DNA from: Naegleria gruberi
Taxonomy: Eukaryota
Reading direction: 5' to 3' (one strand)
Length of the DNA stretch: 64,000 nt
Assembly (NCBI GenBank): GCA_000004985.1
Contig: GG738846.1
The notes under the pieces were generated by a model. That model was not told the origin of the DNA. It searched no databases and saw only the letters and a program-made list of their open reading frames with translations. The translations under genes were made by a program, and so were the position numbers. Below are positions 2,267 to 49,251 of the stretch, piece by piece. Numbering within the stretch: position 1 is the first letter of the stretch; each line of letters opens with the position of its first letter.

Positions 2267-2340
2267 GCCGTCATAGCTCAGTTGGATAGAGCACAGGACT
2301 TCTAATCCTGGGGTCGTGGGTTCGAGCCCCATTGTCGGTA
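2267..2340 (+). tRNA. tRNA-Arg (anticodon TCT)
   Basis: Cloverleaf read directly: acceptor GCCGTCA/TGTCGGT (one T-T mismatch, one G-U), D-arm GCTC..GAGC, anticodon stem CAGGA/TCCTG with loop CTTCTAA (anticodon TCT at 2301-2303), 5-nt variable loop, T-arm GTGGG TTCGAGC CCCAT. No encoded CCA, as expected for a eukaryotic nuclear tRNA. Confidence 0.8.
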
Positions 2341-14059: not shown

Positions 14060-16685
14060 TCAGTTTAGAACCTTATTTAAATCCAAGCATTTATGAAGAA
14101 GGTAAAGAGCTACTTTGTCCTCTTCATAATACTTCTCTTGATAGGAAGACTGATGGAACTGAAATAGATCAATTGCTTCATCAAGGTCTCCTTCAAAAAA
14201 TTTGGCACATGCTTGGTTGTGGTGTTCCCAAGAATCTTTGAGACCACTGCTTGACTGTCTCCATTCTTCAGAATCTTCCATAGAGGTAGTTTCTCCTACC
14301 TGATACAACCTCGTTGGAAAACTTACTCTATCTTGTTTTGGTGAAATAATTGGAGAATTACCTTCATCATCTGCAAGCAGCTTTTTTTCTCCCACAAATC
14401 TGAAATTGTAACTATCCTTATTCTTTTCAAAAATTGACTCTGAAACAATGAGAGAAATTTCCAATTTGCTTGCATGCTTAATCAACAGCTGTAAATTGTG
14501 TAAATAACTTCCAAATATTGCATAATTCTTAATTTGAGAAGTCCCAACGTTACCACAAACACAGTGTTGTGAAAGTAACGAGCCTCTAAATGTAAACTTT
14601 AAATTTTGAATATGCGAATTCTTCCACTTCTTATCTCGAGTTGCTTTTAACCTTCTCAATATTTGATAAACAGAAAAAGTTGCTGACTCTTCATGTGAAC
14701 TCGATTCAATGATAGAATTCCAAGTAATAGTTATGTAATTATTCTCAAAGCTTCCTATTTGCCCATTGGTGGCTTGCGCAGTTTTCTGTATGATAACAAA
14801 ACAGTCATTGAGAACAGAAACAGTCTCATCAAAATCAAGAGCTGACAAGAAGTGATCCAAACCTTCAAAATAAATCATACCACTTGTTACTCTTCTCTTT
14901 TCCAATCCTAGACAAAACAATCGTTCTAGTTTTGGAGTAGTAGCTGCTGCATCTCTTGTTATCACAGATATTTGACCATTTACACTTCCTGAGGTCGATG
15001 TCAAAGAGTGTTGTCTTTCCAAGATCATTCTTCCTATTGTTGACTTTCTTAAATTGACTTCCATATCTAGCTTTTGAAGAATATGTGGCGGAAGGAATGC
15101 TCTGTAATTTTTCAGCCTTGTCAACATGGTTTGGAAATGCTTTTGTAAAATGTTGACCTCTGCCAATGATGACGGCCTCATCTGGATGTCTTCAAGTCTC
15201 ATGTTTGAAATTGATTCGAATACTGTTGTCAATTGTTGAAATGGGCGGAAGAGAGAAATGCTCGACACGACCCCCATCACTGCACCCACAATGGCAATAA
15301 TCAAACTTGACAGAATACCAACAATCAAGGCAATAAATAACTGACCAACATAGTCCCATTTTGGAACATTTAGCACTAGCAGCCAATCCACTCCTGCCTT
15401 ACAAAACCTATTCATGCAAATAACACTGTCTTCATTTGTAAAAAACTGGTACTCTCCACATTTGAGAGATTTCAAGTTATTATTCATAGAAGTGTAGATT
15501 AATTTGGAAACAGATCGTATCTTGGGTTGTTCAAAAGTTAGGGCAGTCATTCTTGTCTCTGTTCTATCTTGATTGAATTTAGAAACTGGTATATCAGGAA
15601 AACTTGCTATTATTGTTACATTTGAGGATTTCATTATACCACTACTTACAAACAACAATATAATTCGTCTCTATTTCAATAGCAAAAGCTACAGAGCCGC
15701 TTATAGCTTCAGTGACTGATTCAATGTAATTTGAAATTGACGATACACTGATATCAATTCCAAAATACCAATCATATGGTAGTTTTGAGCTATTGTCAGG
15801 ATGTGAATTGACACAACTCATAAATGTTATAGAAGGTAACGTTGGGTCAGTGTAAGACCTCGAAAATTGAGGCTTATTGGGGGAATTATTTGCAACACCC
15901 ATGATTTTAGACATATCAAATGGTCCCAGTATGACATCAGGAACATCCTTATTCTTGTAGTCACAAAATCCCTTATTTAAAAAATCATCACAATACCAAT
16001 AATATTGTCCAGTCTCATTAATTAACATTTGAGTTGGTTTTCCTCCTAATACTAACACTCCCAAATTCCCTCCCAGAGTGTCTCTTGGAAAAGTTTCTTT
16101 TAAATTGAAATGTTTCTGAAAAACTTACCCAAAATAAACAGTCACCATTAAGGTTGATAAATACGTAAATGCACTCTTATAAATCCTATATGTCAAAGAG
16201 TAGGCATTCTCAGTATTGTTATAATTAAAATCCTCCCACATTATATTCTTTGTTGTATCTGAAACAACTAGAACCTTATCAATGGTTTCATCGGTGAAAT
16301 TTACAACTTTTTCAATTTGTTGCCTTAATACATCCTGACTAAATTTTGAAACACTCGAACTAAAACAAGAAATCCATATTGTAGTGAGTAATAGAGAAGT
16401 AACAATTACTAAAGAGACCATAATTACTATTAAAACACACTTGATGGAGTATACAGTCCTCGTCTCTCCATTTCCTCCCTCATAATTTCCACCACTATTA
16501 TTATTATTATTATTATTATTATTATCCTGAATATATATTGAGGAAACTTTTTCATCATTCCCAGTTTCATTCCTAGAGGAATAACTTGCTTGCTCTTCCG
16601 ATGTATTAAATTTAATGCTAGCAATGTTGGGCAGTGAATCACGGTCATCATACGCAAGAACCTTATTATTTCTCATGTAATACAT
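14060..16685 (-). CDS. two-transmembrane sensor protein with a cytoplasmic class III nucleotidyl-cyclase homology domain that appears catalytically degenerate (pseudo-cyclase); 3 exons
   Basis: Exons are complement(16129..16685), complement(15650..16083) and complement(14060..15606), joined by a 45-nt and a 43-nt GTAAGT..AG intron. The first intron removes the in-frame TAA that separates two same-frame track ORFs; the second restores the frame. Topology: TM1 (VLIVIMVSLVIVTSLLLTTIWI), an extracellular segment of about 330 aa, TM2 (LFIALIVGILSSLIIAIVGAVMGV), then a cyclase-homology region. LNDCFVIIQKTAQATNGQIGSF resembles [25 protein letters not shown], and FRGSLLSQHCVCGNVGTSQIKNYAIFGSYLHN resembles [26 protein letters not shown]. 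The metal-binding Asp positions read E and S, and the transition-state Arg is replaced. Confidence 0.65.
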
Positions 16686-16950
16686 GTAATAATGGAGATA
16701 TTTGGAATGGTGTTTTTTTTATTCGTACGAGAGTTTGATTGCTCAAAGAGACCAACTTGAGCAGACTATATTTGGGAATTAGCACTTTCACTTTGCATGT
16801 TAATTTAAAGTACACTCTAAAACATTCTTCGCGAATTATATCTTTTTCTGATACCCAATGCCATTTATAATTGTTTTCAATTCAGCTACCCTATTTTCAA
16901 TTTTCCTTCTTGGTCGTATAAATGGAATCCCTTATATTTTGAAAGTTTGC

Positions 16951-18654
16951 TTATTTATTGTTTTTAGAGTCTCCCCCTATAAAATTCCTAAGCGTGCTAA
17001 TCCTTTGCATTAGCCTCTTGGCTTCTAAAAAATCGTCATCTTCATCACTCTCCTCTTCAAAAAGATCGAATTGTGGGGCTGTTTTTGTTATTTTTTCAAT
17101 TTTAGGTTCACTTGGTCGCAGAGATGGTTTGGACGTGTTGTGACTTCTATTCTTATTCTCTATTGAGGAGAAATAAGTTGAACTACTATTGTCACGAAGA
17201 AGTGAAGGCACTTTTTCTACTGCCTTCGTTGGTTTTGACATTTTTGGTTGAGAATCACCACGTAGTTTAGAATTGTTCAAGCTAGTTTGTGGCCTTGAAG
17301 ATAATGTTGTGGCTGGAGGCCTCTTCTCAATATTTGATTTCTCTTTCGGGAGAGTAACACCTTTTCTTTGAGCTAACAAGTCTCTGAATGAGGATGTTGA
17401 AGGTTGTTGTTGTACATTGTTACTTTGACTAGTTGTCACAGCAGGTTTCTTGTAACTTCCAACATTGGATATTGTAAATACAGAATCATTGATGAGTCCT
17501 AAATTTTTTTTCAATTGAGATTGAGCAGTGTTTGCAGAGTCTTTTTTGGAGAGAGACTTGCTCCTGTTTTCAGCATTTGATGAATTGAATCTCACCTTCT
17601 TAGCACTGGCAGATCGGTTTAGGATGGGGTTAGTTGCCTTAGTATCGATACTCTTATTGGTCTGAAGCATTGATTTTGAAAATTTCTTAGTTGAAGAGAA
17701 ATCTGCTGATGTTTGTAGTTTTTTGACATCGCTATTGTACACATTTTGGTTTTTTTCAACATCGTCCATTAGTCCGGCTAAACAAAACGCTCTGGAAGAA
17801 GTTTCCTTTGTTGCACCCTTCTTTTTAACAGAAGTGATTAATTTCCTCAGATCATCTGGTTTCATCACATTCTTGGACTGGGTTGGGCGATTTGGATCCT
17901 CTCGCTTAAGTCCAAGTCTATGGTTCTCGTTCCTTAATTTAATTCTCTCTTCTAATTGTTTTTTGAAAGACATGTCATGAGAATCATTTTCGTTATCAAT
18001 ATAAGAAGTTTGTTTCGGTATCAAGGTATCGAAATGATGCTCCAACGTTGGGCGTAAGTTGATAGAAGTTCTTATCGATGAAATATTGTTTGACTGTTGA
18101 GTTGATTTTGATGAAACCTGTTCATCCGGTTTTTGGGGGATTTTCCTCTTGAAATCGCTTAGCTTACTCACTGTTTGTTTACGCTTATCTACAGTTTTAG
18201 GATCAAGGGTCATCTTTTGCAAATTACTAATTTCCTCCAAAAAGTTTTCAGACTCTGCAATAAAAGAATCCTCCACTCTTGATGGCTTGTTAACATTTGA
18301 AAACAGTCTATCATATTCCAAGTTATTTGGGAAGGAATCATCATTACAATTGTAATTTTTAAATCTCGGAGAAGGAGGGGAAGGTTGTTGATTGTTTTGT
18401 TGCTTTTTTTCTCTCTTCTCCAAAAAGGCTTGAAATACATTATTTCTCTCTCTTCTGTCCACCCTCATTGTCTCCTCTTCGTATTCATGATGTAAATCAG
18501 AGTAGGGATCAGTGTTATCGTTTTGAAAATCGGAGGAAATGAGGTTTGATAAACGAAGATGAGAAGCAGCTGTTTTTCTTCTCGAAATGTTGTCTTCAAT
18601 CCTTAATATAGAGTTAAAGAGATCATTCTCATCATCCAAATCCTCGAGATTCAT
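16951..18654 (-). CDS. hypothetical S/N/K-rich low-complexity protein
   Basis: 567-aa uninterrupted ORF with coding-like periodicity and an acidic C-terminal patch (EEESDEDDDFLEAKRLMQRI). No recognisable domain. Confidence 0.4.
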   Translation of the reverse strand: MNLEDLDDENDLFNSILRIEDNISRRKTAASHLRLSNLISSDFQNDNTDPYSDLHHEYEEETMRVDRRERNNVFQAFLEKREKKQQNNQQPSPPSPRFKNYNCNDDSFPNNLEYDRLFSNVNKPSRVEDSFIAESENFLEEISNLQKMTLDPKTVDKRKQTVSKLSDFKRKIPQKPDEQVSSKSTQQSNNISSIRTSINLRPTLEHHFDTLIPKQTSYIDNENDSHDMSFKKQLEERIKLRNENHRLGLKREDPNRPTQSKNVMKPDDLRKLITSVKKKGATKETSSRAFCLAGLMDDVEKNQNVYNSDVKKLQTSADFSSTKKFSKSMLQTNKSIDTKATNPILNRSASAKKVRFNSSNAENRSKSLSKKDSANTAQSQLKKNLGLINDSVFTISNVGSYKKPAVTTSQSNNVQQQPSTSSFRDLLAQRKGVTLPKEKSNIEKRPPATTLSSRPQTSLNNSKLRGDSQPKMSKPTKAVEKVPSLLRDNSSSTYFSSIENKNRSHNTSKPSLRPSEPKIEKITKTAPQFDLFEEESDEDDDFLEAKRLMQRISTLRNFIGGDSKNNK

Positions 18655-18911
18655 AATTAAAAGCTTAGGAAGAAATTAATAATGATGAAGCTCCTGTTGT
18701 TGTGCTTTTATTTTTTTAATTATTAATGTAACGCTTGTAATGAGAAGGCGCCAAATCAAAGAGAAATAAACACCGTGGATTTCTCGTTATACTAATGTTT
18801 TATATTCTAGTTTTTGGATGAACATTTCAACCTAACAATTTTTTCTCTAAAGTTTTAGTTTTCAAAATTCTTAAATATTAGACAAACAGAGTTTTAGAGA
18901 TAATTGTGAGT

Positions 18912-20240
18912 TTATTGTTGATGTGAGGGTTTATATTTCATGCCACAAATGAATCCAATCCTAAATCCCTCAACGATCAAATTCAAATCATGAGTTGAAC
19001 GAACGGGCAGGCCATTAAAAATAGCAGCCATATCACTCTCAGCTTTGCAAATTTCTTGTAAGAGTACCAGAAACTCTGGTAAACTATTTGCACTGGTTAA
19101 TAGGTGACAGTTTTGGAGAATACTTCTTCCATCACCCAAGTGGAAATGTGGTTGATTTACAGTGGTGATATTATTATTGGTGATTGAGTTTGCAAATGTT
19201 ACATGTTGGGTTGGCCTCTGAGATGTTGAGGATAAGTATGCTCCTGTTTCATTATTTGATGAAGTATGATCGTTGGGAATTTGATTAAAATGTAAAAGGA
19301 TATTCTTAATGTAATTGACTTGGTCTGAACTAGTATCATTGATTAGGGAATTGAAGGTTTGTGAGCTAGATGATGATGGTTGATTTGGATTTGTTGTTGG
19401 ATTGAAACTGTACATTTGATTAATTTGACTTGGTTGGGAGTTTTTGAAAGGGGATGTTGCTTTTGAACCACTTGAATTTATCACTTCCTGCTTGACATCC
19501 TCATTTGGACCACCACTATCACTTGTTTCACTCTCCGAATTTGATCCTAGTTCAACATTTGCAGAGCTCATACCTTCACCAATTGGAATGATTCCCTTCT
19601 TAACTTGTTGTCTATATTTCTGGAGATGAGATTTGATATGTGTGGTGGTCAAATCAGGGAGATTCATCAATTCCAATATTTCCTTTGGTCTTGCCTCATT
19701 GAGTCCTAGCTGAGACACTGCTTTAACAAATAGATCATGCAATTCATTGGTCCAAACTAACCTCTTCTTATCGGCATGCTTTCGTTTAAAATCAGTTTCC
19801 ATGTGATAAAAGAGAGAACTCTCCATTGTGGCAGAACTTGATCCAACATTTCCCCTGGAAGACTCTGCTTGTTGTTTCCTCTTCTTATTACTGGAGAATC
19901 CTTGTTGTGGTGGATTATTCATGTTGTGAAATTGAAAGGAAGTTGTTGGAGGAGTGCTATTACTACTGCTTGCACATGTATTATTCACACTCACATTTCC
20001 ACTCGATTGAAACAAGAACATGTTGTTACTAATATTGTTGGCATTATTCAAATCCGTCATGTTAGATTGGTGTTGATAATTACTTCTACTACTATTGTTC
20101 CCGTTACTTCTTGCATTGTTAGATGGTGGATGGTGTTGTTCACCAAAGGTGAATTGTTGCTGTTGTTGATGATAGGGTTGTTGTTGTTGTTGTTGTTGGT
20201 GTTGAAAAGGGGAGGTGTGTGCAGGTGTTCTTTGAGGCAT
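18912..20240 (-). CDS. Myb-like (SHAQKYF/GARP class) DNA-binding transcription factor with polyQ/N tracts; possible additional polyQ 5' exon at about 20350..20596
   Basis: KKRLVWTNELHDLFVKAVSQLGLNEARPKEILELMNLPDLTTTHIKSHLQKYR matches the single-repeat Myb SHAQKY[FR] class. Upstream, a polyQ-coding ORF ends in TTTGG|GTAAGT; a 137-nt intron to CCTCAAAG| would join in frame (speculative). Confidence 0.7.
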   Translation of the reverse strand: MPQRTPAHTSPFQHQQQQQQQPYHQQQQQFTFGEQHHPPSNNARSNGNNSSRSNYQHQSNMTDLNNANNISNNMFLFQSSGNVSVNNTCASSSNSTPPTTSFQFHNMNNPPQQGFSSNKKRKQQAESSRGNVGSSSATMESSLFYHMETDFKRKHADKKRLVWTNELHDLFVKAVSQLGLNEARPKEILELMNLPDLTTTHIKSHLQKYRQQVKKGIIPIGEGMSSANVELGSNSESETSDSGGPNEDVKQEVINSSGSKATSPFKNSQPSQINQMYSFNPTTNPNQPSSSSSQTFNSLINDTSSDQVNYIKNILLHFNQIPNDHTSSNNETGAYLSSTSQRPTQHVTFANSITNNNITTVNQPHFHLGDGRSILQNCHLLTSANSLPEFLVLLQEICKAESDMAAIFNGLPVRSTHDLNLIVEGFRIGFICGMKYKPSHQQ

Positions 20241-20491
20241 ATCTTTTGTGAGTTAAATTGTGCGCCGAGTTAAATTAGATCAGGAAGAAGTTTAGTAATA
20301 TAAAATGCATGCAATAAAATGCCAAGTTGGTATTAATGTTGCAACACAGTAGGAAAGTTGACTTACCAAATTGAGAGAAGGAATTGTCTATAGTAGATTG
20401 AATGTGGTTTGGTTGAGGGGAAATGTAAGAGATGTTATTATTATTGTGATAATCAACCAGGAAGTTAATTAATTGGTTTGTGGTAAGGTCC

Positions 20492-20524
<33 letters not shown>

Positions 20525-20994
20525 CCTATTATTTTTGAGTAGTGAAATGGTGAGGATATGTTACTAGGGTTTTGTGGTTCGACCAATGATAACATGTTCT
20601 CTATGCCTAAATAAAACAAATAGATATTATACACGCACATCAATTAGTTAGATCACTTACACACATATCAGTTGAACTGCTTTTGTATTTAAACAGAAGG
20701 AGGGTAATTGATAATTCTGAAATTTCTCGACCAGATTGAATCAAAGTTAACCTGTTGGATTATGAAAGTATGTTGCAGATTCTTTTTTTTAAACATGGAT
20801 GTTTGTTGTGTGCCGTGTTGGTTAAGAATGAATTTAAGCTCAAATATTACCTGGAGAGAATATTAGTGTACTTAAAACGAAATTAGCAAACAATCTCTAA
20901 GAAATTTTTTCTGACCAAATTTGTACAAGTTACTGAGCATTTACGGTTGAGGAAGTTTTCATGTGTGGATACGAATACAAATAAAGATTTATTT

Positions 20995-21545
20995 GAGATA
21001 TTCGTCGAAAGATTCAGTCGTATGCCGGCTACGTCACGCATGTACAAATGCCACTACTCCTCAGGTACATGGAAAGTTTGTATGTGATTTGGAATGGGAA
21101 TAGGGCTTCTTCTCAATCTCATCTCTTGAGCTCCATACGCCTTGGAGATGAGTTTGACAATTTCAAAATCAATTCTAGATGTATTTAGAATACATGCATG
21201 ATTCATGTACGGTCACATGCCAGTGATAATCATGTAGTGCTGATGTACGCAGTACCTCCTATGATTACCATTTGGTACATGCTGACATGTCCCATGTGAC
21301 CATCAATTTGTCTGTGTCTGAATTATTGTTGATTTTGGTGATGGCCCATTCCTCCTCTAGAAATATTCTTCCAATTTGGACCACATGTATTACTAATGAA
21401 GAAATTGTACAAGAATGATGACATATGTCTTTGTACCCTACCTAGACAGAACATGTGTTTACATGATCATGATGATCATCACCATGTATCGACATGTGTT
21501 TACATGATGTGTTGTAGTTTGTCCTCCCATGATTTTTTAATCATC
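20995..21545. other. compositionally distinct GC-richer island, dense in CATG-containing palindromes, with a 17-bp direct repeat (acatgtgtttacatgat at 21451..21467 and 21492..21508)
   Basis: Seen directly: motifs such as catgtacggtcacatgcc and ggtacatgctgacatgtcccatgtgacc; a hairpin CTCATCTC..GAGATGAG near 21115-21155. It lies in a long (about 1.4 kb) divergent intergenic region between the Myb gene and the antistasin-like gene. No match to snRNA or SRP RNA consensus that I can recall. Confidence 0.3.
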
Positions 21546-22013
21546 AAAAAATTAGGAGAAAAATTCCACCATAACAAAAATACACGAAGCCAATTTCAAC
21601 GTTGTTTTAAAACAACAATAAGAAGAGAATATTCTTCAACGTTACTTAAAACATTTTTTTGTTTGGTAGACAACAATGGAATGAACACGGGTCAATGGCA
21701 TCCATTCAATAACGCATTGTACAATTTTGTTAATAGCGAAAGATATCCAATTAAGCCAGATACAATCTTGTCAACAGATTATTTCTCTTCTTTAAATTAT
21801 TCATGAAATCGAATGTGTTGAATAGAATTCAAGGTGGTGTCATTGTATAGGGAAGAATTAATTCATCATTCAGAAAAGGAATGAAATAACTCTCATTCTT
21901 ACAAAAATTTCTGAATGTGAACATTATAATCAATCATTACAATCAAAGCGAAAACTTAAAAGTCTACCTGGCCACAGATCAACGACAAATATCATAACCA
22001 AAAAAAAATTGTC

Positions 22014-23205
22014 ATGTCCAGATTATTGCTTGGTGTGTTGCTTGTTGCCATCATCTTGACTTGTGTTGCTTGTCAAGAGCATGTTGAAAAAGAGGGATGG
22101 GATGGTGTTGGCTTTTTCCTAGGTGAGAAATCTGCATCTCAACTCCAAATGGTATGTCAATATTATTATTTCACATCACTAATTATTGTATTATATATAT
22201 TGAACTCTCTAGACAAAAAGAAGAAGTGAAATTCTTTCAATTTTGAACAAACCACCACAACCTTCCAACAAGATTACATCCACTAATCAATCCATTAGAG
22301 ATGTCATTGCTAATGCTCAACTTCCAACATCATCTACTATTAAATTCCCAAATAATAGATTCCCTTCATGCACAAAACAACATTGTAAAAAATTCTGTCG
22401 TCATGGTTTCCAAACTGATGCTCGTGGTTGTCCAATGTGTGCATGTAAACAACCTTGTCCAACTTATAGAGCTTGTAAAAGAAAATGTGAGTTTGGCTAT
22501 GTTCTCGATGCAAATGGTTGTAATAGTAAATGCCAATGCAAAGAAGCTCCAGCTCTTGTCAAACCTAAACCAATATGCCCACAATATTTGTGCAGACGTC
22601 ATTGTCAATTTGGATTCAAAATTAATGAAAAGGGTTGCAGAACTTGTTCCTGTAATGAAAAACCAATCAAACCTAAACCATTAAGTATTTGTCCACTTTA
22701 TAGATGTAGACGTCATTGTCAATTTGGATTCAAAATTAATGAAAAGGGTTGCAGAACTTGTTCCTGTAATGAAAAACCAATCAAACCATCAAGTATTTGC
22801 CCACTTTATGGATGTAGACGTTACTGTCCATATGGATTCAAGATTAATGAAAAGGGATGTACTACTTGTTCCTGTAATGAAACGCCAAATACCACAAAGC
22901 CATTCCCAATCAAACCAATATGCCCACAATATTTGTGTAGACGTCATTGTCAATTTGGATTCAAGATTAATGAAAAGGGTTGCAGAACTTGTTCCTGTAA
23001 TGAAAAGCCAAATACCACAAAGCCTTTCCCAATCAAACCAAACCCAATCAAGCCAGATTTTATTAGAAGATTCATCCAAAATCAAACCAAGCCACTCAAG
23101 TTAAACAATGGCCAAAAAATTGAGACATTGTTTACCAAACCAGCTGTGTTGAGAGCTGAATCTGCTCCAGTCAGAACTTTTCCAAGAAGAGGTGGTAGAA
23201 GATAA
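22014..23205 (+). CDS. secreted protein with six antistasin-like cysteine-knot domains (serine-protease-inhibitor type); 2 exons
   Basis: Exon 1 is 22014..22151 (signal peptide MSRLLLGVLLVAIILTCVACQ, ends ..CAAATG|GTATGT). A 61-nt intron runs to CTCTAG|. Exon 2 is 22213..23205. The domains CRRHCQFGFKINEKGCRTCSCNEKP, CKRKCEFGYVLDANGCNSKCQCKE and CKKFCRHGFQTDARGCPMCACKQ match antistasin/hirustasin (CRVHCPHGFQRSRYGCEFCKC; CRIRCKYGLKKDENGCEYPCSC). Confidence 0.75.
22545..23045 (+). repeat. four tandem, nearly identical coding repeats of about 117-129 nt (antistasin-like domains 3-6), separated by PKP/PIKP linkers
   Basis: The nucleotide strings ...tgtagacgtcattgtcaatttggattcaa[a/g]attaatgaaaagggttgcagaacttgttcctgtaatgaaaa... 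recur with only a few substitutions. The track shows mirror-image spurious ORFs in other frames, as expected for tandem repeats. Confidence 0.8.
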
Positions 23206-27200: not shown

Positions 27201-27441
27201 TTTTTTTGTTTTTAACAGACAATTAAAGCGGGAATTATTCTTTCCAAAGAAGTTGTTATGTGGGGTAATGTGATGGCAATGTTATACTAGTAACAGGGCC
27301 AACACAGTTTTAAATTAAAATTAATAAGAAACGTAATCCAGTATGTGGGTGAAGAAAGTGAAATAAATTACCATCATTGCAAGAGTAATAATAATTATAA
27401 ATTATCATCAAAGACGTTAAATATTTTTGAAGTTAGAAAAA

Positions 27442-27948
27442 ATGGACGGAAACAATTATTACTCTCCAACAGCACAATCACCAGGTGCTACCTATGCTTC
27501 GCCACACTATGTATCACCATCATCATATACACCAGGTGGTGTACCAATGTCTCCTAATGCCACATCTAATCCTTTCCAACCTTCATCTCACCAACAACAA
27601 TTGCAAGAAAGCTTGCCATCTTTGAATCAACCATCTAGTACTACTGCTAAGCGTGAAAAAACTGTAGCTGTTGTTTATATTTGCGGACATTGTGCTGTTT
27701 TGAACACTATTAAACAAGGTGATGCTATCCGTTGTAAGAATTGTGGTTATCGTATCATGTACAAACAAAGAACGACGAGAAGTAAGTGTTATTTGTGTTT
27801 TGTATGATGACTAATTTGATTGTTATTGTTTTGTTGAAAAATAACGTTGTTTGGATTGATTTAAAACTATTTCTAAATGTAATGAATTTTATTGTGGAAT
27901 TTTATGGAAATTATAACAAAATTAGAGATCCAATTTGAAGCTAGATAA
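27442..27948 (+). CDS. DNA-directed RNA polymerases I/II/III subunit RPABC4 (Rpb12/Rpc10) with an unusual S/P/Y-rich N-terminal extension; 2 exons
   Basis: Exon 1 is 27442..27781 (..KQRTTR then A|GTAAGT). A 144-nt intron runs to ..AAATTAG|. Exon 2 is 27926..27948 (KIQFEAR*). The core [42 protein letters not shown] matches human POLR2[43 protein letters not shown], including the C-terminal VVFDAR tail restored by splicing. Confidence 0.75.
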
Positions 27949-46836: not shown

Positions 46837-47752
46837 TCATTTGTAATGTCTTTTAAAATCATGCCATTGAAATGCTGTATTATTTACAATGTTATTATTT
46901 GAAACATTATGCTGTTGTGATGGAGATGTAATAGTTCTTTTCCTTTTCTTTTCATCTTCCAAAACTTCCTCTTCTCCAATCTCTGTGTTGATTAGAGACA
47001 CTTCCTTTGGTAAATGTACTATTTCCTTGTTAGACTTGTTTTTTCCCCTCTGAGGTGAACGAACAACAGTTCTAAACCTTGGAGATTTGAAAGTTAGTAA
47101 CAATGCAGAGTCATTGAAGATATTTACATTCAATCTGAATTTGTCAACTGTTTGATCACTACTAGTTTCTCTAAATCTGAATTCCAATTTAGCTTTTGTG
47201 TAGCCATGCTATTATGTAAAGTCCACATATACATGACAGATGTGTACATGAACAATCATTTAATGCATGCAGAAACATGAAAAGAAAAGTAACATTACTT
47301 TAAATAGAAACCAAACAACATACCTTTGAAACATCTAAATCTTGACAACACCTTCCCTTAATACCTCGTTTTCCCTTTCTCTCACTCTTTACACAAACGA
47401 TTGGAGTATTGGTCATTCCACACACCAGTTCCACTTGTACCCACAAGTTCAAATTGCAATTCACAGTACATACTCGAAGAGTGTACTTAAGAGAGCTCAA
47501 CAAGTGATTTTCACCATTATATACCTCAAATATCAAATTCTTTGTTGATATGACAACTTCGTCTGGTGTGAGTAAAGGTTGTTGATCAAAGGCGTCATAG
47601 TTTTGGAGACCAACTATGCAATCTTCCTCCGAAAAGAAGGATGGTACATACACTTTCGAAGTGCCTCCAGTGTTGTACCTCTTCTTACTAATTTCATGAA
47701 TTAAATTCGGAGAATTGTGATGTTGTTGATAAGTGGTTGTTTGTTGTTCCAT
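46837..47752 (-). CDS. hypothetical protein; 2 exons
   Basis: Exons are complement(47324..47752) and complement(46837..47208), joined by a 115-nt GTATGT..ATAATAG intron (phase 0). It reads ..CCQDLDVSK|HGYTKAKLEFRF... Beta-rich N-terminal region and K/E-rich tail. No family recognised. Confidence 0.45.
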
Positions 47753-48276: not shown

Positions 48277-49251
48277 TTATTTCTTTTGGACAACTGTTTG
48301 ATTAATTTGACCAAAGATTGAAACCTTATTATTATCAAACATTTCCAATTGAATTCTATCACCAAACTTCATGAATGGAGTTGTAAATTGACCAGTTTCA
48401 ATCTTTTCAATCATTCTCTTTTCAGCAATACATGAACTACCACGTGATTGATCTTCATTACTGACAGTACCGCTTCCAATTATAGTACCAGCAGTGAGAG
48501 CACGAGTTTGTGTAACGTGTTGAATTAAATCATGGAATGAGAAGAACATTTCTGGTCCAGCATTTGGATTACCAAACAATTTACCATTCAAATGTGAAAT
48601 CAAATCACCATGACATCTGCCATCCTTCCACAATTCACCCAATTCATCCAAAGTAACAGCAAAAGGTGAGAAACTACTAGATGGCTTTGAAACAAAGAAT
48701 CCGAATTGTTTTTCCAATTCCTTTGGAATTAAATTACGTAAAGAAACATCATTACAAATCATGACCAATTTGATATATTGACCAGCTTGATCAGCTTTAG
48801 TACCCATTGGCACATCCTTTACAATAACAGCAACTTCACCTTCAAAATCAATTCCATAATCTTCACTAAAATGTTCAACATCTTGATTTGGTCCAATAAA
48901 AGTGCCACTTCCTCCTTGATAAACTAATGGATCTGTACGGAGTGTTTCTGGAGGTTGAGCATTACGTGCTTTACGAACAAGAACAATGTGATTAATGTAT
49001 GCACTACCATCGATCCATTCATAGGAACGTGGAAGTGGAGCCATTAAATTTTGTGATGACAATTCATGAGTGAATTGTATGGTCTTGTATAATTCTTCAA
49101 CTTTTGGATATAAATTATCCCAATCATCTAATAATTGTTGCATGGTTGTACTGATTTCGCTTGGGACTTCGGCATAGTGTGTACCTTCCTTGTTGACAAT
49201 GATTAATCTGCCATCTCTGGTTTGGTTTTTCAAGGTTGCGAATTTAACCAT
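48277..49251 (-). CDS. fumarylacetoacetate hydrolase (FAH) family enzyme (FAHD/acylpyruvase-like, single domain)
   Basis: 324-aa ORF with FAH-fold blocks (DFEGEVAVIVKDVPMG; LVMICNDVSLRNLIPKE; GTIIGSGTVSNED; KFGDRIQLEMFD). It lacks the N-terminal domain of true fumarylacetoacetase. Confidence 0.75.
   Translation of the reverse strand: MVKFATLKNQTRDGRLIIVNKEGTHYAEVPSEISTTMQQLLDDWDNLYPKVEELYKTIQFTHELSSQNLMAPLPRSYEWIDGSAYINHIVLVRKARNAQPPETLRTDPLVYQGGSGTFIGPNQDVEHFSEDYGIDFEGEVAVIVKDVPMGTKADQAGQYIKLVMICNDVSLRNLIPKELEKQFGFFVSKPSSSFSPFAVTLDELGELWKDGRCHGDLISHLNGKLFGNPNAGPEMFFSFHDLIQHVTQTRALTAGTIIGSGTVSNEDQSRGSSCIAEKRMIEKIETGQFTTPFMKFGDRIQLEMFDNNKVSIFGQINQTVVQKK

What the first reader, a model, noticed from the sequence alone, without database searches (positions are those of the whole stretch)
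20995..21545. GC-richer island packed with CATG palindromes and a 17-bp direct repeat in an unusually long divergent intergenic region
Against 65-70% A+T surroundings, this roughly 550-bp block is visibly GC-richer and is built from reiterated CATG-centred motifs (catgtacggtcacatgcc; ggtacatgctgacatgtcccatgtgacc). It also holds a tandemly spaced exact 17-mer (acatgtgtttacatgat, twice) and an 8-bp-stem hairpin. No convincing ORF is present: the track ORF 21396..21806 is H/C-rich and lacks coding periodicity. Candidates are a structured ncRNA gene, a cluster of transcription-factor sites shared by the flanking divergent genes (Myb factor and antistasin-like gene), or a relic mobile-element terminus.
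Basis: seen in the sequence. Interest (0 to 1): 0.5.

Follow-up and report, generated by a model that had tools for sequence, protein, structure and literature searches.

The report
CATG/GTAC motif island between divergent genes
In the gap between two back-to-back Naegleria gruberi genes lies a real, single-copy, non-coding 500-bp island with about ten times the usual density of the short palindromes CATG and GTAC; it is most likely a cluster of protein-binding sites controlling transcription, but this is unproven and nothing about it is extraordinary.

Summary
Window 20995-21545 has 18 CATG, against a median of 2 and a maximum of 8 elsewhere per 551 bp; 0 of 2000 dinucleotide shuffles reach 18. 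GTAC occurs 8 times against 1.3 expected. There are 11 alternating purine-pyrimidine runs of 8 nt or more, an exact 17-mer present twice, and a 9-bp hairpin. GC is raised only over about 20950-21350.

The window is Naegleria gruberi NEG-M. The island sits at the midpoint of a 1418-bp divergent gap between a GARP/SHAQKYF Myb gene and a secreted antistasin-repeat gene. It matches no Rfam family. It is not a tandem array, has no terminal inverted repeats and has no second copy in the DNA available. No ORF in it has a homolog or a Pfam domain.

Best reading (about 0.4): a homotypic cluster of sites for a dimeric DNA-binding protein, acting as a shared or bidirectional regulatory module. Rivals:
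- An unannotated minus-strand transcript ending at an AAUAAA inverted repeat at 20978-20995 (about 0.25).
- Neutral decayed simple sequence (about 0.2).
- A mobile-element relic (about 0.05).

No orthologous sequence or expression data could be reached, so function is inferred. Modest interest.

The parts
21035..21531 (.). CATG/GTAC island proper: 18 CATG, 8 GTAC and 10 alternating purine-pyrimidine runs of 8 nt or more (an 11th lies at 20960-20967)
21035..21071 (.). Sub-cluster A: CACGCATGTACA ... GGTACATG. Inverted 7-mers CATGTAC (21039-21045) and GTACATG (21065-21071), next to an ACGTCA (CRE-like) word
21190..21237 (.). Sub-cluster B: ATACATGCATGATTCATGTACGGTCACATGCC...ATCATGTAG, with 5 CATG in 42 bp, including CATGCATG (the only copy in the window)
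21275..21301 (.). Sub-cluster C: GTACATGCTGACATGTCCCATGTGACC (3 CATG)
21211..21301 (.). 91-nt self-complementary unit closed by GGTCACATG / CATGTGACC; z -2.6 (+) and -3.4 (-). On + it carries imperfect C/D-like boxes (GUGAUAA ... CUGA ... AUGAUUA ... CUGA)
   Evidence: boxes read directly from the sequence
21451..21508 (+). Sub-cluster E: two exact copies of ACATGTGTTTACATGAT (21451-21467 and 21492-21508). CATG starts at 21452, 21462, 21483, 21493 and 21503 are about 10 bp or multiples apart. The run CATGATCATGATGATCATCACCATG in between looks like a microsatellite
21113..21157 (.). Hairpin with a 9-bp perfect stem (CTCATCTC / GAGATGAG core)
20851..21050 (.). CpG-richest 200 bp of the window (9 CpG, o/e 1.55, against a genome o/e of 0.40) at the left edge of the island
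20978..20995 (.). Inverted repeat CAAATAAA-GA-TTTATTTG. It holds AATAAA on + (20980-20985) and the only AAUAAA of the minus strand in the whole gap (TTTATT, 20988-20993). Candidate bidirectional poly(A) signal marking the left boundary of the island
   Evidence: N. gruberi poly(A) rules from PMC11529991
21054..21206 (-). 50-codon ORF (MNHACILNTSRIDFEIVKLISKAYGAQEMRLRRSPIPIPNHIQTFHVPEE). Its codon score lies in the coding range and its stop is 61 nt upstream of the minus-strand AAUAAA. It has no Pfam or PDB match, and its exact sequence is not in the protein collection. Coding status is uncertain
21396..21806 (+). 136-codon ORF. It is longer than chance (4/1000 shuffles), but it has no homolog in 5.8e9 or 1.84e9 proteins, no Pfam domain, codon score -0.03 per codon (real genes 0.19 +/- 0.09) and no A-rich start context. 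Probably not a gene
20367..20595 (-). Probable first exon of the Myb gene (ATG 20595-20593, donor GTAAGT 20366-20361, acceptor AG 20244-20243, in frame with ORF 18912-20240). It sets the left end of the gap
   Evidence: inferred splice
18912..20242 (-). Myb (SHAQKYF/GARP-type) gene, main exon
22014..23205 (+). Antistasin-repeat gene: exon 1 at 22014-22151 (signal peptide), intron at 22152-22212, exon 2 at 22213-23205 (6 antistasin domains)

Best explanation
The island is non-coding, single-copy DNA made of many copies of two short palindromic cores: CATG (mostly as YACATG, CATGTAC or CACATG) and GTAC. They are embedded in short alternating purine-pyrimidine tracts. I propose it is a homotypic cluster of binding sites for a sequence-specific DNA-binding protein that binds as a dimer. 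It would act as a regulatory module at the centre of the divergent Myb/antistasin gap.

Shown: the statistical clustering, the strand symmetry, the central position, and the absence of coding, RNA-family, tandem-repeat or transposon signatures.

Inferred: that a protein binds; that occupancy of many weak sites gives a switch-like or additive output; and that the module drives one or both flanking genes, and perhaps a short leftward transcript that stops at the AAUAAA inverted repeat at 20978-20995. The factor is unknown. CATGTG-type E-box binders and GTAC-core binders are only leads.
For: The CATG density is about 10 times the window level and beyond every shuffle. Enrichment is specific to CATG and GTAC among the palindromic 4-mers, and the extended words are themselves dyad-symmetric or occur in both orientations. 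The sites have different flanks and are spread over 500 bp in five sub-clusters, several at about 10-bp spacing. There is no tandem array, no repeat family, no terminal inverted repeats, no Rfam family and no protein homology in any frame. The island centre (about 21285) coincides with the midpoint of the 20596-22013 gap (21305). The CpG-richest patch of the window abuts it, and the other CpG-rich patches of the window lie at gene 5' ends. Eighteen ATGs on each strand make a function as the translated 5' leader of either flanking gene unlikely.
Against: There is no conservation test. Synteny with N. lovaniensis and N. fowleri is lost beyond the Myb domain. The only near-identical strain contigs stop at 21045 and restart at 21887. 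No binding protein is known, and the literature searches found no described Naegleria cis-element. The motifs are not enriched in the 300 bp upstream of 18 other genes in the window, so this is not a general promoter element. The island lies 440-970 bp from both ATGs, which is far for this compact genome. The raised GC of 20950-21350 is not explained by the motifs alone. The exact 17-mer duplication and a microsatellite-like run show that slippage or duplication contributed to the sequence.
Confidence: 0.4

Rival explanations
1. The 'long intergenic region' hides an unannotated transcription unit. This would be a short minus-strand RNA running from about 21200-21550 leftward to a poly(A) site near 20970. 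It could be a structured non-coding RNA or the mRNA of the 50-codon ORF 21206->21054. The CATG words would then be partly its promoter and partly its body.
For: The only minus-strand AAUAAA of the 1.4-kb gap is at 20988-20993. Two UGUA lie 50-80 nt upstream of it and U-rich sequence lies downstream. This matches the N. gruberi poly(A) architecture reported in PMC11529991. In the window, 15 of 21 long ORFs have AAUAAA within -4 to +100 nt of the stop; ORF50 has it at +61. The ORF50 codon score is 0.14 per codon. That is the 27th percentile of real 50-codon chunks and is exceeded by 2% of wrong-frame ORFs and 13% of intergenic-like small ORFs. 21003-21302 is the GC-richest ORF-free stretch, and the only comparable island (27432-27780) is a real small gene. 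AT skew is negative over 21000-21400, as in minus-strand genes, and positive from 21450. A sliding fold scan gives five separate minus-strand loci with z<=-2.5, against two on the plus strand.
Against: No Rfam match was found. ORF50 and every other ORF of 30 codons or more in 20947-21933 are absent as exact sequences from the 15-billion-protein collection, which includes the NEG-M annotation. There are no Pfam or PDB hits. The start context lacks the A-run seen at most genes of the window. AAUAAA counts in the gap are at chance level. Whole-block fold z-scores are similar on both strands. The C/D-like boxes are imperfect.
Confidence: 0.25
2. The island has no function. It is cryptic simple sequence: the decayed product of slippage and small duplications of alternating purine-pyrimidine units such as (CATG)n, (CA/TG)n or (TACA)n in a fast-evolving intergenic region.
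For: Eleven alternating purine-pyrimidine runs of 8 nt or more make the block the window maximum for such sequence. There is an exact 17-mer duplication 41 bp apart and a microsatellite-like run, CATGATCATGATGATCATCACCATG. Local dinucleotide content alone raises the expected CATG count from 2 to 6.8. The gap is structurally unstable between near-identical strains: the 81 bp at 20893-20973 are replaced by about 37 unrelated bp. A smaller CATG cluster also occurs in a probable intron at 47205-47279.
Against: TRF finds no array, even at score 30. The sites are dispersed among unrelated sequence over 500 bp. CATG still exceeds all dinucleotide shuffles. Other alternating 4-mers (TGCA, TATA, ATAT, ACGT) are not enriched.
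Confidence: 0.2
3. The island is a relic of a mobile element (a terminus or a MITE-like unit).
For: Short inverted repeats are present: GGTCACATG/CATGTGACC enclosing 73 nt, and CATGTAC/GTACATG. The metagenome assembly of a near-identical strain breaks on both sides of the region, at 21045 and 21887. A published study reports that 5mC in N. gruberi is confined to transposons (PMC12695648).
Against: No terminal inverted repeats of useful length bound the block, and no target-site duplication is visible. No second copy exists in the 64-kb window or in 43 kb of N. lovaniensis and N. fowleri DNA. No transposase-like ORF is present. There are no hits in the phage or plasmid collections, and only a single match of the 17-mer in the viral contigs. 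CpG in the island is not more depleted than the genome average.
Confidence: 0.05

Closest known systems
Homotypic clusters of transcription-factor binding sites in divergent promoters (for example the yeast GAL1-GAL10 UAS with its Gal4 dyads; own knowledge)
   Same: Several copies of a short dyad-symmetric word lie centrally between two divergently transcribed genes. The region is non-coding and single-copy, and the sites have variable flanks.
   Different: There are 18-20 copies of a core of only 4-6 bp. No factor is known. No conservation or binding evidence exists. The distance to both ATGs (440-970 bp) is large for this genome.
CATG-core and GTAC-core elements of other lineages: the non-canonical E-box/M-box CATGTG (bHLH), the plant RY/Sph element CATGCATG (B3), apicomplexan ApiAP2 sites TGCATGCA and GTAC, and the Chlamydomonas copper-response element with a GTAC core (SBP domain). 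All from own knowledge.
   Same: The same core words are the enriched ones here: CACATG/CATGTG 6 vs 0.17 expected, one CATGCATG, GTAC 8 vs 1.3.
   Different: None of these factor families was shown to exist or to act in Naegleria. The resemblance is at the level of a 4-6-bp word, so it is only a lead.
p53-family response element (RRRCWWGYYY, spacer of 0-13, RRRCWWGYYY)
   Same: The two CATG cores in the 17-mer are exactly 10 bp apart.
   Different: The best match has 4 of 20 mismatches, no better than 47 other sites in the window. The literature search found no Naegleria p53.
Box C/D snoRNA
   Same: The 91-nt unit 21211-21301 has a terminal stem and, on the plus strand, boxes in the right order (GUGAUAA, CUGA, AUGAUUA, CUGA).
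   Different: Both C-type boxes are imperfect. The box-to-stem spacing is off. No Rfam hit was found. Both strands fold equally well. A guide-rRNA match could not be tested.
Decayed alternating purine-pyrimidine microsatellite / cryptic simple sequence
   Same: The island is rich in short RY runs and contains one exact local duplication.
   Different: There is no detectable period, and only two of the eight alternating palindromic 4-mers are enriched.

Membership tests
Homotypic TF-binding-site cluster / cis-regulatory module | Statistically significant local clustering of one short motif in non-coding DNA | tested here: met
   18 CATG vs 6.8 (local shuffles, 0/2000) or about 2 (window). ACATG 20 vs 1.5 expected.
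Homotypic TF-binding-site cluster / cis-regulatory module | Position in promoter-proximal or intergenic DNA of regulated genes | tested here: met
   The island centre at 21285 compares with the gap midpoint at 21305 between divergent genes.
Homotypic TF-binding-site cluster / cis-regulatory module | Conservation of the sites in orthologous regions | not testable with these tools
   Synteny is lost in N. lovaniensis and N. fowleri. The strain contigs do not cover 21046-21886.
Homotypic TF-binding-site cluster / cis-regulatory module | A cognate factor that binds the motif | not testable with these tools
   The literature searches found nothing.
Known structured RNA family (Rfam) | Covariance-model match at or near the gathering score | tested here: not met
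   No hit at gathering score for the window apart from the tRNA at 2267-2340. Within the finding's block (20995-21545) the best hits are 15.7-17.1 bits against cut-offs of 39-75; the 22-bit hits in the same scan lie outside it, at 21578-21905.
Box C/D snoRNA | Canonical C (RUGAUGA) and D (CUGA) boxes adjacent to a terminal stem | tested here: inconclusive
   GUGAUAA and CUGA are present with a 9-bp stem, but the C box has a mismatch at the G that pairs with the D box, and the spacing is atypical (sequence, fold).
Box C/D snoRNA | A guide of 10-21 nt complementary to rRNA upstream of D/D' | not testable with these tools
Protein-coding gene (ORF 21396-21806) | Homologs or domains | tested here: not met
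   No hits.
Protein-coding gene (ORF 21396-21806) | Codon usage like that of the genome's genes | tested here: not met
   -0.03 per codon, against 0.19 +/- 0.09 for real genes and 0.02 +/- 0.07 for wrong-frame ORFs.
Protein-coding gene (ORF 21396-21806) | ORF longer than chance | tested here: met
   4 of 1000 shuffles reach 136 codons.
Tandem repeat / minisatellite | Head-to-tail copies with a detectable period | tested here: not met
   TRF at score 30 finds nothing in 20995-21545. The two 41-bp units share only their first 17 nt.
DNA transposon / MITE relic | Terminal inverted repeats and a target-site duplication | tested here: not met
   There are no bounding inverted repeats; the longest arms are 16-21 nt at 71-88% complementarity and lie inside the block.
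DNA transposon / MITE relic | Multiple copies in the genome | tested here: inconclusive
   No copy was found in the 64-kb window or in 43 kb of other Naegleria DNA. The whole genome was not searchable.
p53-type response element | Two RRRCWWGYYY decamers, 0-13 bp apart, with few mismatches | tested here: not met
   The best sites in the block have 4 mismatches. The window holds 47 sites that good or better.
CpG island | Local CpG o/e well above the genome level | tested here: not met
   The CATG-rich part has o/e 0-0.38, against 0.40 for the genome. Only the left edge, 20851-21050, is CpG-rich (o/e up to 1.55).

The most novel reading that the evidence does not exclude
The island would be the first defined cis-regulatory module of a heterolobosean. 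In this reading it is a dense array of YACATG/GTAC dyads recognised by a Naegleria factor that has not been characterised. It would work as a bidirectional switch for a GARP-Myb regulator and a secreted protease-inhibitor gene, possibly coupled to a short structured minus-strand RNA that terminates at a palindromic AAUAAA.
Probability: 0.3. Interest if true: 0.45.

Novelty: new member of a known kind. Interest (0 to 1): 0.3.

Why it matters
The literature searches made here found no description of promoters or enhancers in Naegleria or other Heterolobosea. A clean, statistically unambiguous motif island next to a transcription-factor gene is a convenient entry point. It gives a defined probe (YACATG, CATGTAC, CACATG) for pull-down or DAP-seq, and a compact reporter target. 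Beyond that it is a local regulatory or neutral feature of one locus. It does not bear on a long-standing open question.

Tried and rejected
- Rfam, at evalue and gathering thresholds: nothing relevant.
- Homology of ORF 21396-21806: none in 5.8e9 proteins or 1.84e9 representatives, and no Pfam domain.
- Pfam on ten stop-to-stop peptides from all frames of the block: nothing. PDB search with ORF50: nothing.
- Exact look-up of 12 small ORFs of the region in the 15-billion-protein collection: none present.
- Pseudogene of a neighbouring gene: tblastx against the window and the other Naegleria loci gave only chance hits.
- Orthologous intergenic comparison: the N. lovaniensis and N. fowleri Myb loci share only the Myb domain, and their neighbours differ. 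The small 'gene' upstream of Myb in N. lovaniensis is probably that gene's own N-terminal exon.
- Near-identical strain contigs from metagenome ERZ929261 end at 21045 and restart at 21887, so the island is not covered.
- JGI metagenome scan with the Myb protein: one unrelated contig of 63% GC.
- Viral contigs with the 17-mer: one isolated match. Phage and plasmid BLAST: none.
- Homology between the island and the smaller CATG cluster at 47205-47279: none above shuffles.
- p53-type site scan: not better than background.
- General promoter element: CATG, GTAC and RY runs are not enriched upstream of 18 other genes.
- CpG-deamination origin (CACG/CGTG -> CATG): considered. It is weakened because N. 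gruberi is reported to have very low CpG methylation, confined to transposons (PMC12695648), and because the excess is context-specific.
- Manual search for a spliced gene model joining ORF50 or ORF136 to other exons: no in-frame donor/acceptor combination was found (reading).

Full report
**Organism and setting.** The window is 34.2% G+C, and 84% of it is covered by open frames of 150 codons or more. ORF 48277-49251(-) is identical to XP_002682893.1, fumarylacetoacetate hydrolase of Naegleria gruberi NEG-M. The best named relatives of the Myb ORF are from N. lovaniensis and N. fowleri. The window is therefore N. gruberi nuclear DNA.

To the left of the finding lies a Myb gene on the minus strand, of the GARP type with the motif SHLQKYR and a Pfam Myb_DNA-binding match. 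Reading the minus strand shows a probable first exon: ATG at 20595-20593, donor GTAAGT at 20366-20361 and acceptor AG at 20244-20243, in frame with ORF 18912-20240. This exon has a positive codon score.

To the right lies a secreted protein with six antistasin domains. Its ATG is at 22014, its intron at 22152-22212 and its second exon at 22213-23205.

The divergent gap is thus 20596-22013, or 1418 bp. It is the longest stretch of the window without convincing coding sequence.

**The observation.**
- CATG occurs 18 times in 20995-21545. Other 551-bp windows have a median of 2, and the highest value elsewhere is 8, in an EGF-repeat coding region.
- Local dinucleotide composition explains part of this excess: shuffles average 6.8. 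None of 2000 shuffles reaches 18.
- K-mer comparison with the rest of the window gives the real words:

| Word | Found | Expected |
|---|---|---|
| ACATG/CATGT | 20 | 1.5 |
| TACATG/CATGTA | 10 | 0.43 |
| CACATG/CATGTG | 6 | 0.17 |
| GTACA/TGTAC | 11 | 1.07 |
| TTGTACA | 5 | 0.15 |

- Of the 16 palindromic tetramers only CATG (9.8x) and GTAC (6.2x) are enriched. TGCA, TATA, ATAT and ACGT are not.
- The words lie in short alternating purine-pyrimidine runs. Eleven runs of 8 nt or more fall in 20950-21560, against 1.6 per kb in the window, and this locus is the window maximum.
- The exact 17-mer is present twice, 41 bp apart, and nowhere else even with three mismatches.
- The hairpin at 21113-21157 is real but modest, with z -2.1/-2.7.
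- G+C is raised (38.8%, peaking at 42% in 21003-21302), but only over about 20950-21350. The 17-mer part is 29-32%.

**What it is not.**
- It matches no Rfam family.
- It is not a tandem repeat.
- It has no bounding inverted repeats.
- It has no second copy in the window or in 43 kb of N. lovaniensis and N. fowleri DNA.
- It has no similarity to phage or plasmid records, and only a single match of the 17-mer in viral contigs.
- It is not a pseudogene of a neighbour.
- No stop-to-stop peptide of any frame hits Pfam.

ORF 21396-21806 has no relative in 5.8 billion clustered proteins or 1.84 billion representatives. Its codon score (-0.03 per codon) resembles wrong-frame ORFs (0.02 +/- 0.07), not genes (0.19 +/- 0.09). 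It also lacks the A-rich start context of the window's genes. Its length is unusual for this composition (4 of 1000 shuffles). I record this as unexplained rather than as evidence for a gene.

**Leads pointing to a transcript.** Published work on N. gruberi reports that AAUAAA is the main poly(A) determinant, that UGUA acts as an upstream helper, and that the median 3' UTR is 39 nt (PMC11529991). In this window 15 of 21 long ORFs have AAUAAA within -4 to +100 nt of the stop.

The gap holds only one minus-strand AAUAAA, at 20988-20993. It sits inside the inverted repeat CAAATAAA-GA-TTTATTTG, which also gives a plus-strand AATAAA. Two minus-strand UGUA lie 50-80 nt upstream.

A 50-codon minus-strand ORF (21206->21054) stops 61 nt before it. 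Its codon score of 0.14 per codon is exceeded by 2% of wrong-frame small ORFs and 13% of intergenic-like small ORFs.

Further hints point the same way:
- AT skew is negative over 21000-21400 and positive from 21450.
- A sliding 110-nt fold scan finds five separate minus-strand loci at z<=-2.5 in the gap, against two on the plus strand. The background 5th percentile is -2.2.
- The only other GC-rich ORF-free island of the window is a real small gene at 27442-27780.

Against this, the AAUAAA counts are at chance level. Whole-block fold z-scores are symmetric on the two strands. No ORF of the region is in the protein collection, which includes the NEG-M annotation.

**Comparative evidence could not be obtained.** The N. 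lovaniensis and N. fowleri Myb loci share only the Myb domain with the window, and their neighbours differ. Contigs of a near-identical strain from metagenome ERZ929261 cover 16536-21045 and 21887 onward, but not the island. They do show that this gap changes by indels: the 81 bp at 20893-20973 are replaced by about 37 unrelated bp.

**Interpretation.** The word is short, dyad-symmetric and equally frequent on both strands. It has variable flanks, is grouped in sub-clusters with some 10-bp spacing, and sits exactly midway between two divergent genes, next to the CpG-richest patch of the window. This pattern is what a homotypic cluster of sites for a dimeric DNA-binding protein looks like, and I rank that first (0.4).

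The ranking does not rest on any binding or conservation data. The motifs are not a general promoter feature of this genome. A hidden minus-strand transcript (0.25) and neutral decayed simple sequence (0.2) remain serious alternatives. A mobile-element relic is unlikely (0.05). The first two readings are compatible with each other: the island could be the bidirectional promoter of a short leftward RNA and of the antistasin gene.

Resemblances to CATGTG E-boxes, RY elements, ApiAP2 or SBP GTAC cores come from memory, and they concern only a 4-6-bp word. The p53-type reading was tested and failed.

**Verdict.** The feature is real and statistically robust, of a familiar kind. Its function is unproven and it is of modest interest. 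Public N. gruberi RNA and chromatin data could decide between the readings.

Noticed in passing
window 21862-21921: Strong hairpin (CATTCAGAAA...TTTCTGAATG with an inner AGGAATGA/TCATTCTT stem) about 100 bp upstream of the antistasin ATG. z is -2.5 (+) and -3.6 (-), and it gives the lowest z of the sliding scan (-4.5). A weak SECIS_5 match (22.7 bits) is far below the cut-off of 50.
   Followed up: partly
window 20893-20973 vs L001: Between NEG-M and a metagenome strain that is about 99% identical, an 81-bp segment of the Myb upstream region is replaced by about 37 unrelated bp. A 12-bp polyQ-tract indel also lies at 20492-20503.
   Followed up: partly
window 22667-22911 vs L008: The metagenome strain's contig jumps from 22666 to 22912, so it has one antistasin repeat unit fewer. 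This is copy-number variation in the repeat array.
   Followed up: no
window 20921, 21405, 21717: Three of the window's six copies of the 8-bp palindrome TTGTACAA lie in this one 1.4-kb gap, two of them outside the CATG island.
   Followed up: partly
window 21627-21634: GAATATTC, a perfect match to the GNATATNC word bound by plant PHR1-type GARP Myb factors (own knowledge), lies in the upstream region of the GARP-type Myb gene itself, within short direct repeats (AGAGAATATT x2, AATATTCTTC x2). The window has 7 copies, so a single copy is near chance.
   Followed up: partly
window 47205-47279: A second, smaller CATG cluster (5 in 75 bp; TACATGA, GTACATGA, TGCATGCA) lies in a probable intron or UTR of a multi-exon minus-strand gene. 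It is not homologous to the island.
   Followed up: partly
window 27442-27780: Small intron-containing gene in an ORF-free stretch, with a C-terminal CxxC...CxxC zinc ribbon that looks RPABC4/Rpb12-like. It is the only other GC-rich 'intergenic' island of the window.
   Followed up: no
window, upstream of the minus-strand ATGs at 18654, 33042 and 37161: E2F-like words TTTGGCGCC / ATGGCGCC lie 30-105 bp upstream of three genes, a possible shared cell-cycle element.
   Followed up: no
window 2267-2340: tRNA-Arg(TCT), 80 bp upstream of the ATG of a large EGF-repeat gene.
   Followed up: yes
L003 14978-16057 (N. lovaniensis): ORF with OrfB_IS605 and Cas12f1-like TNB domains (TnpB/Fanzor-like), 4 kb from the N. 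lovaniensis Myb gene.
   Followed up: no
whole window: CpG o/e is 0.40, although N. gruberi is reported to have very little CpG methylation (PMC12695648). The CpG-richest patches lie at 20851, 38401 and 45551, with 38401 and 45551 at gene 5' regions.
   Followed up: partly
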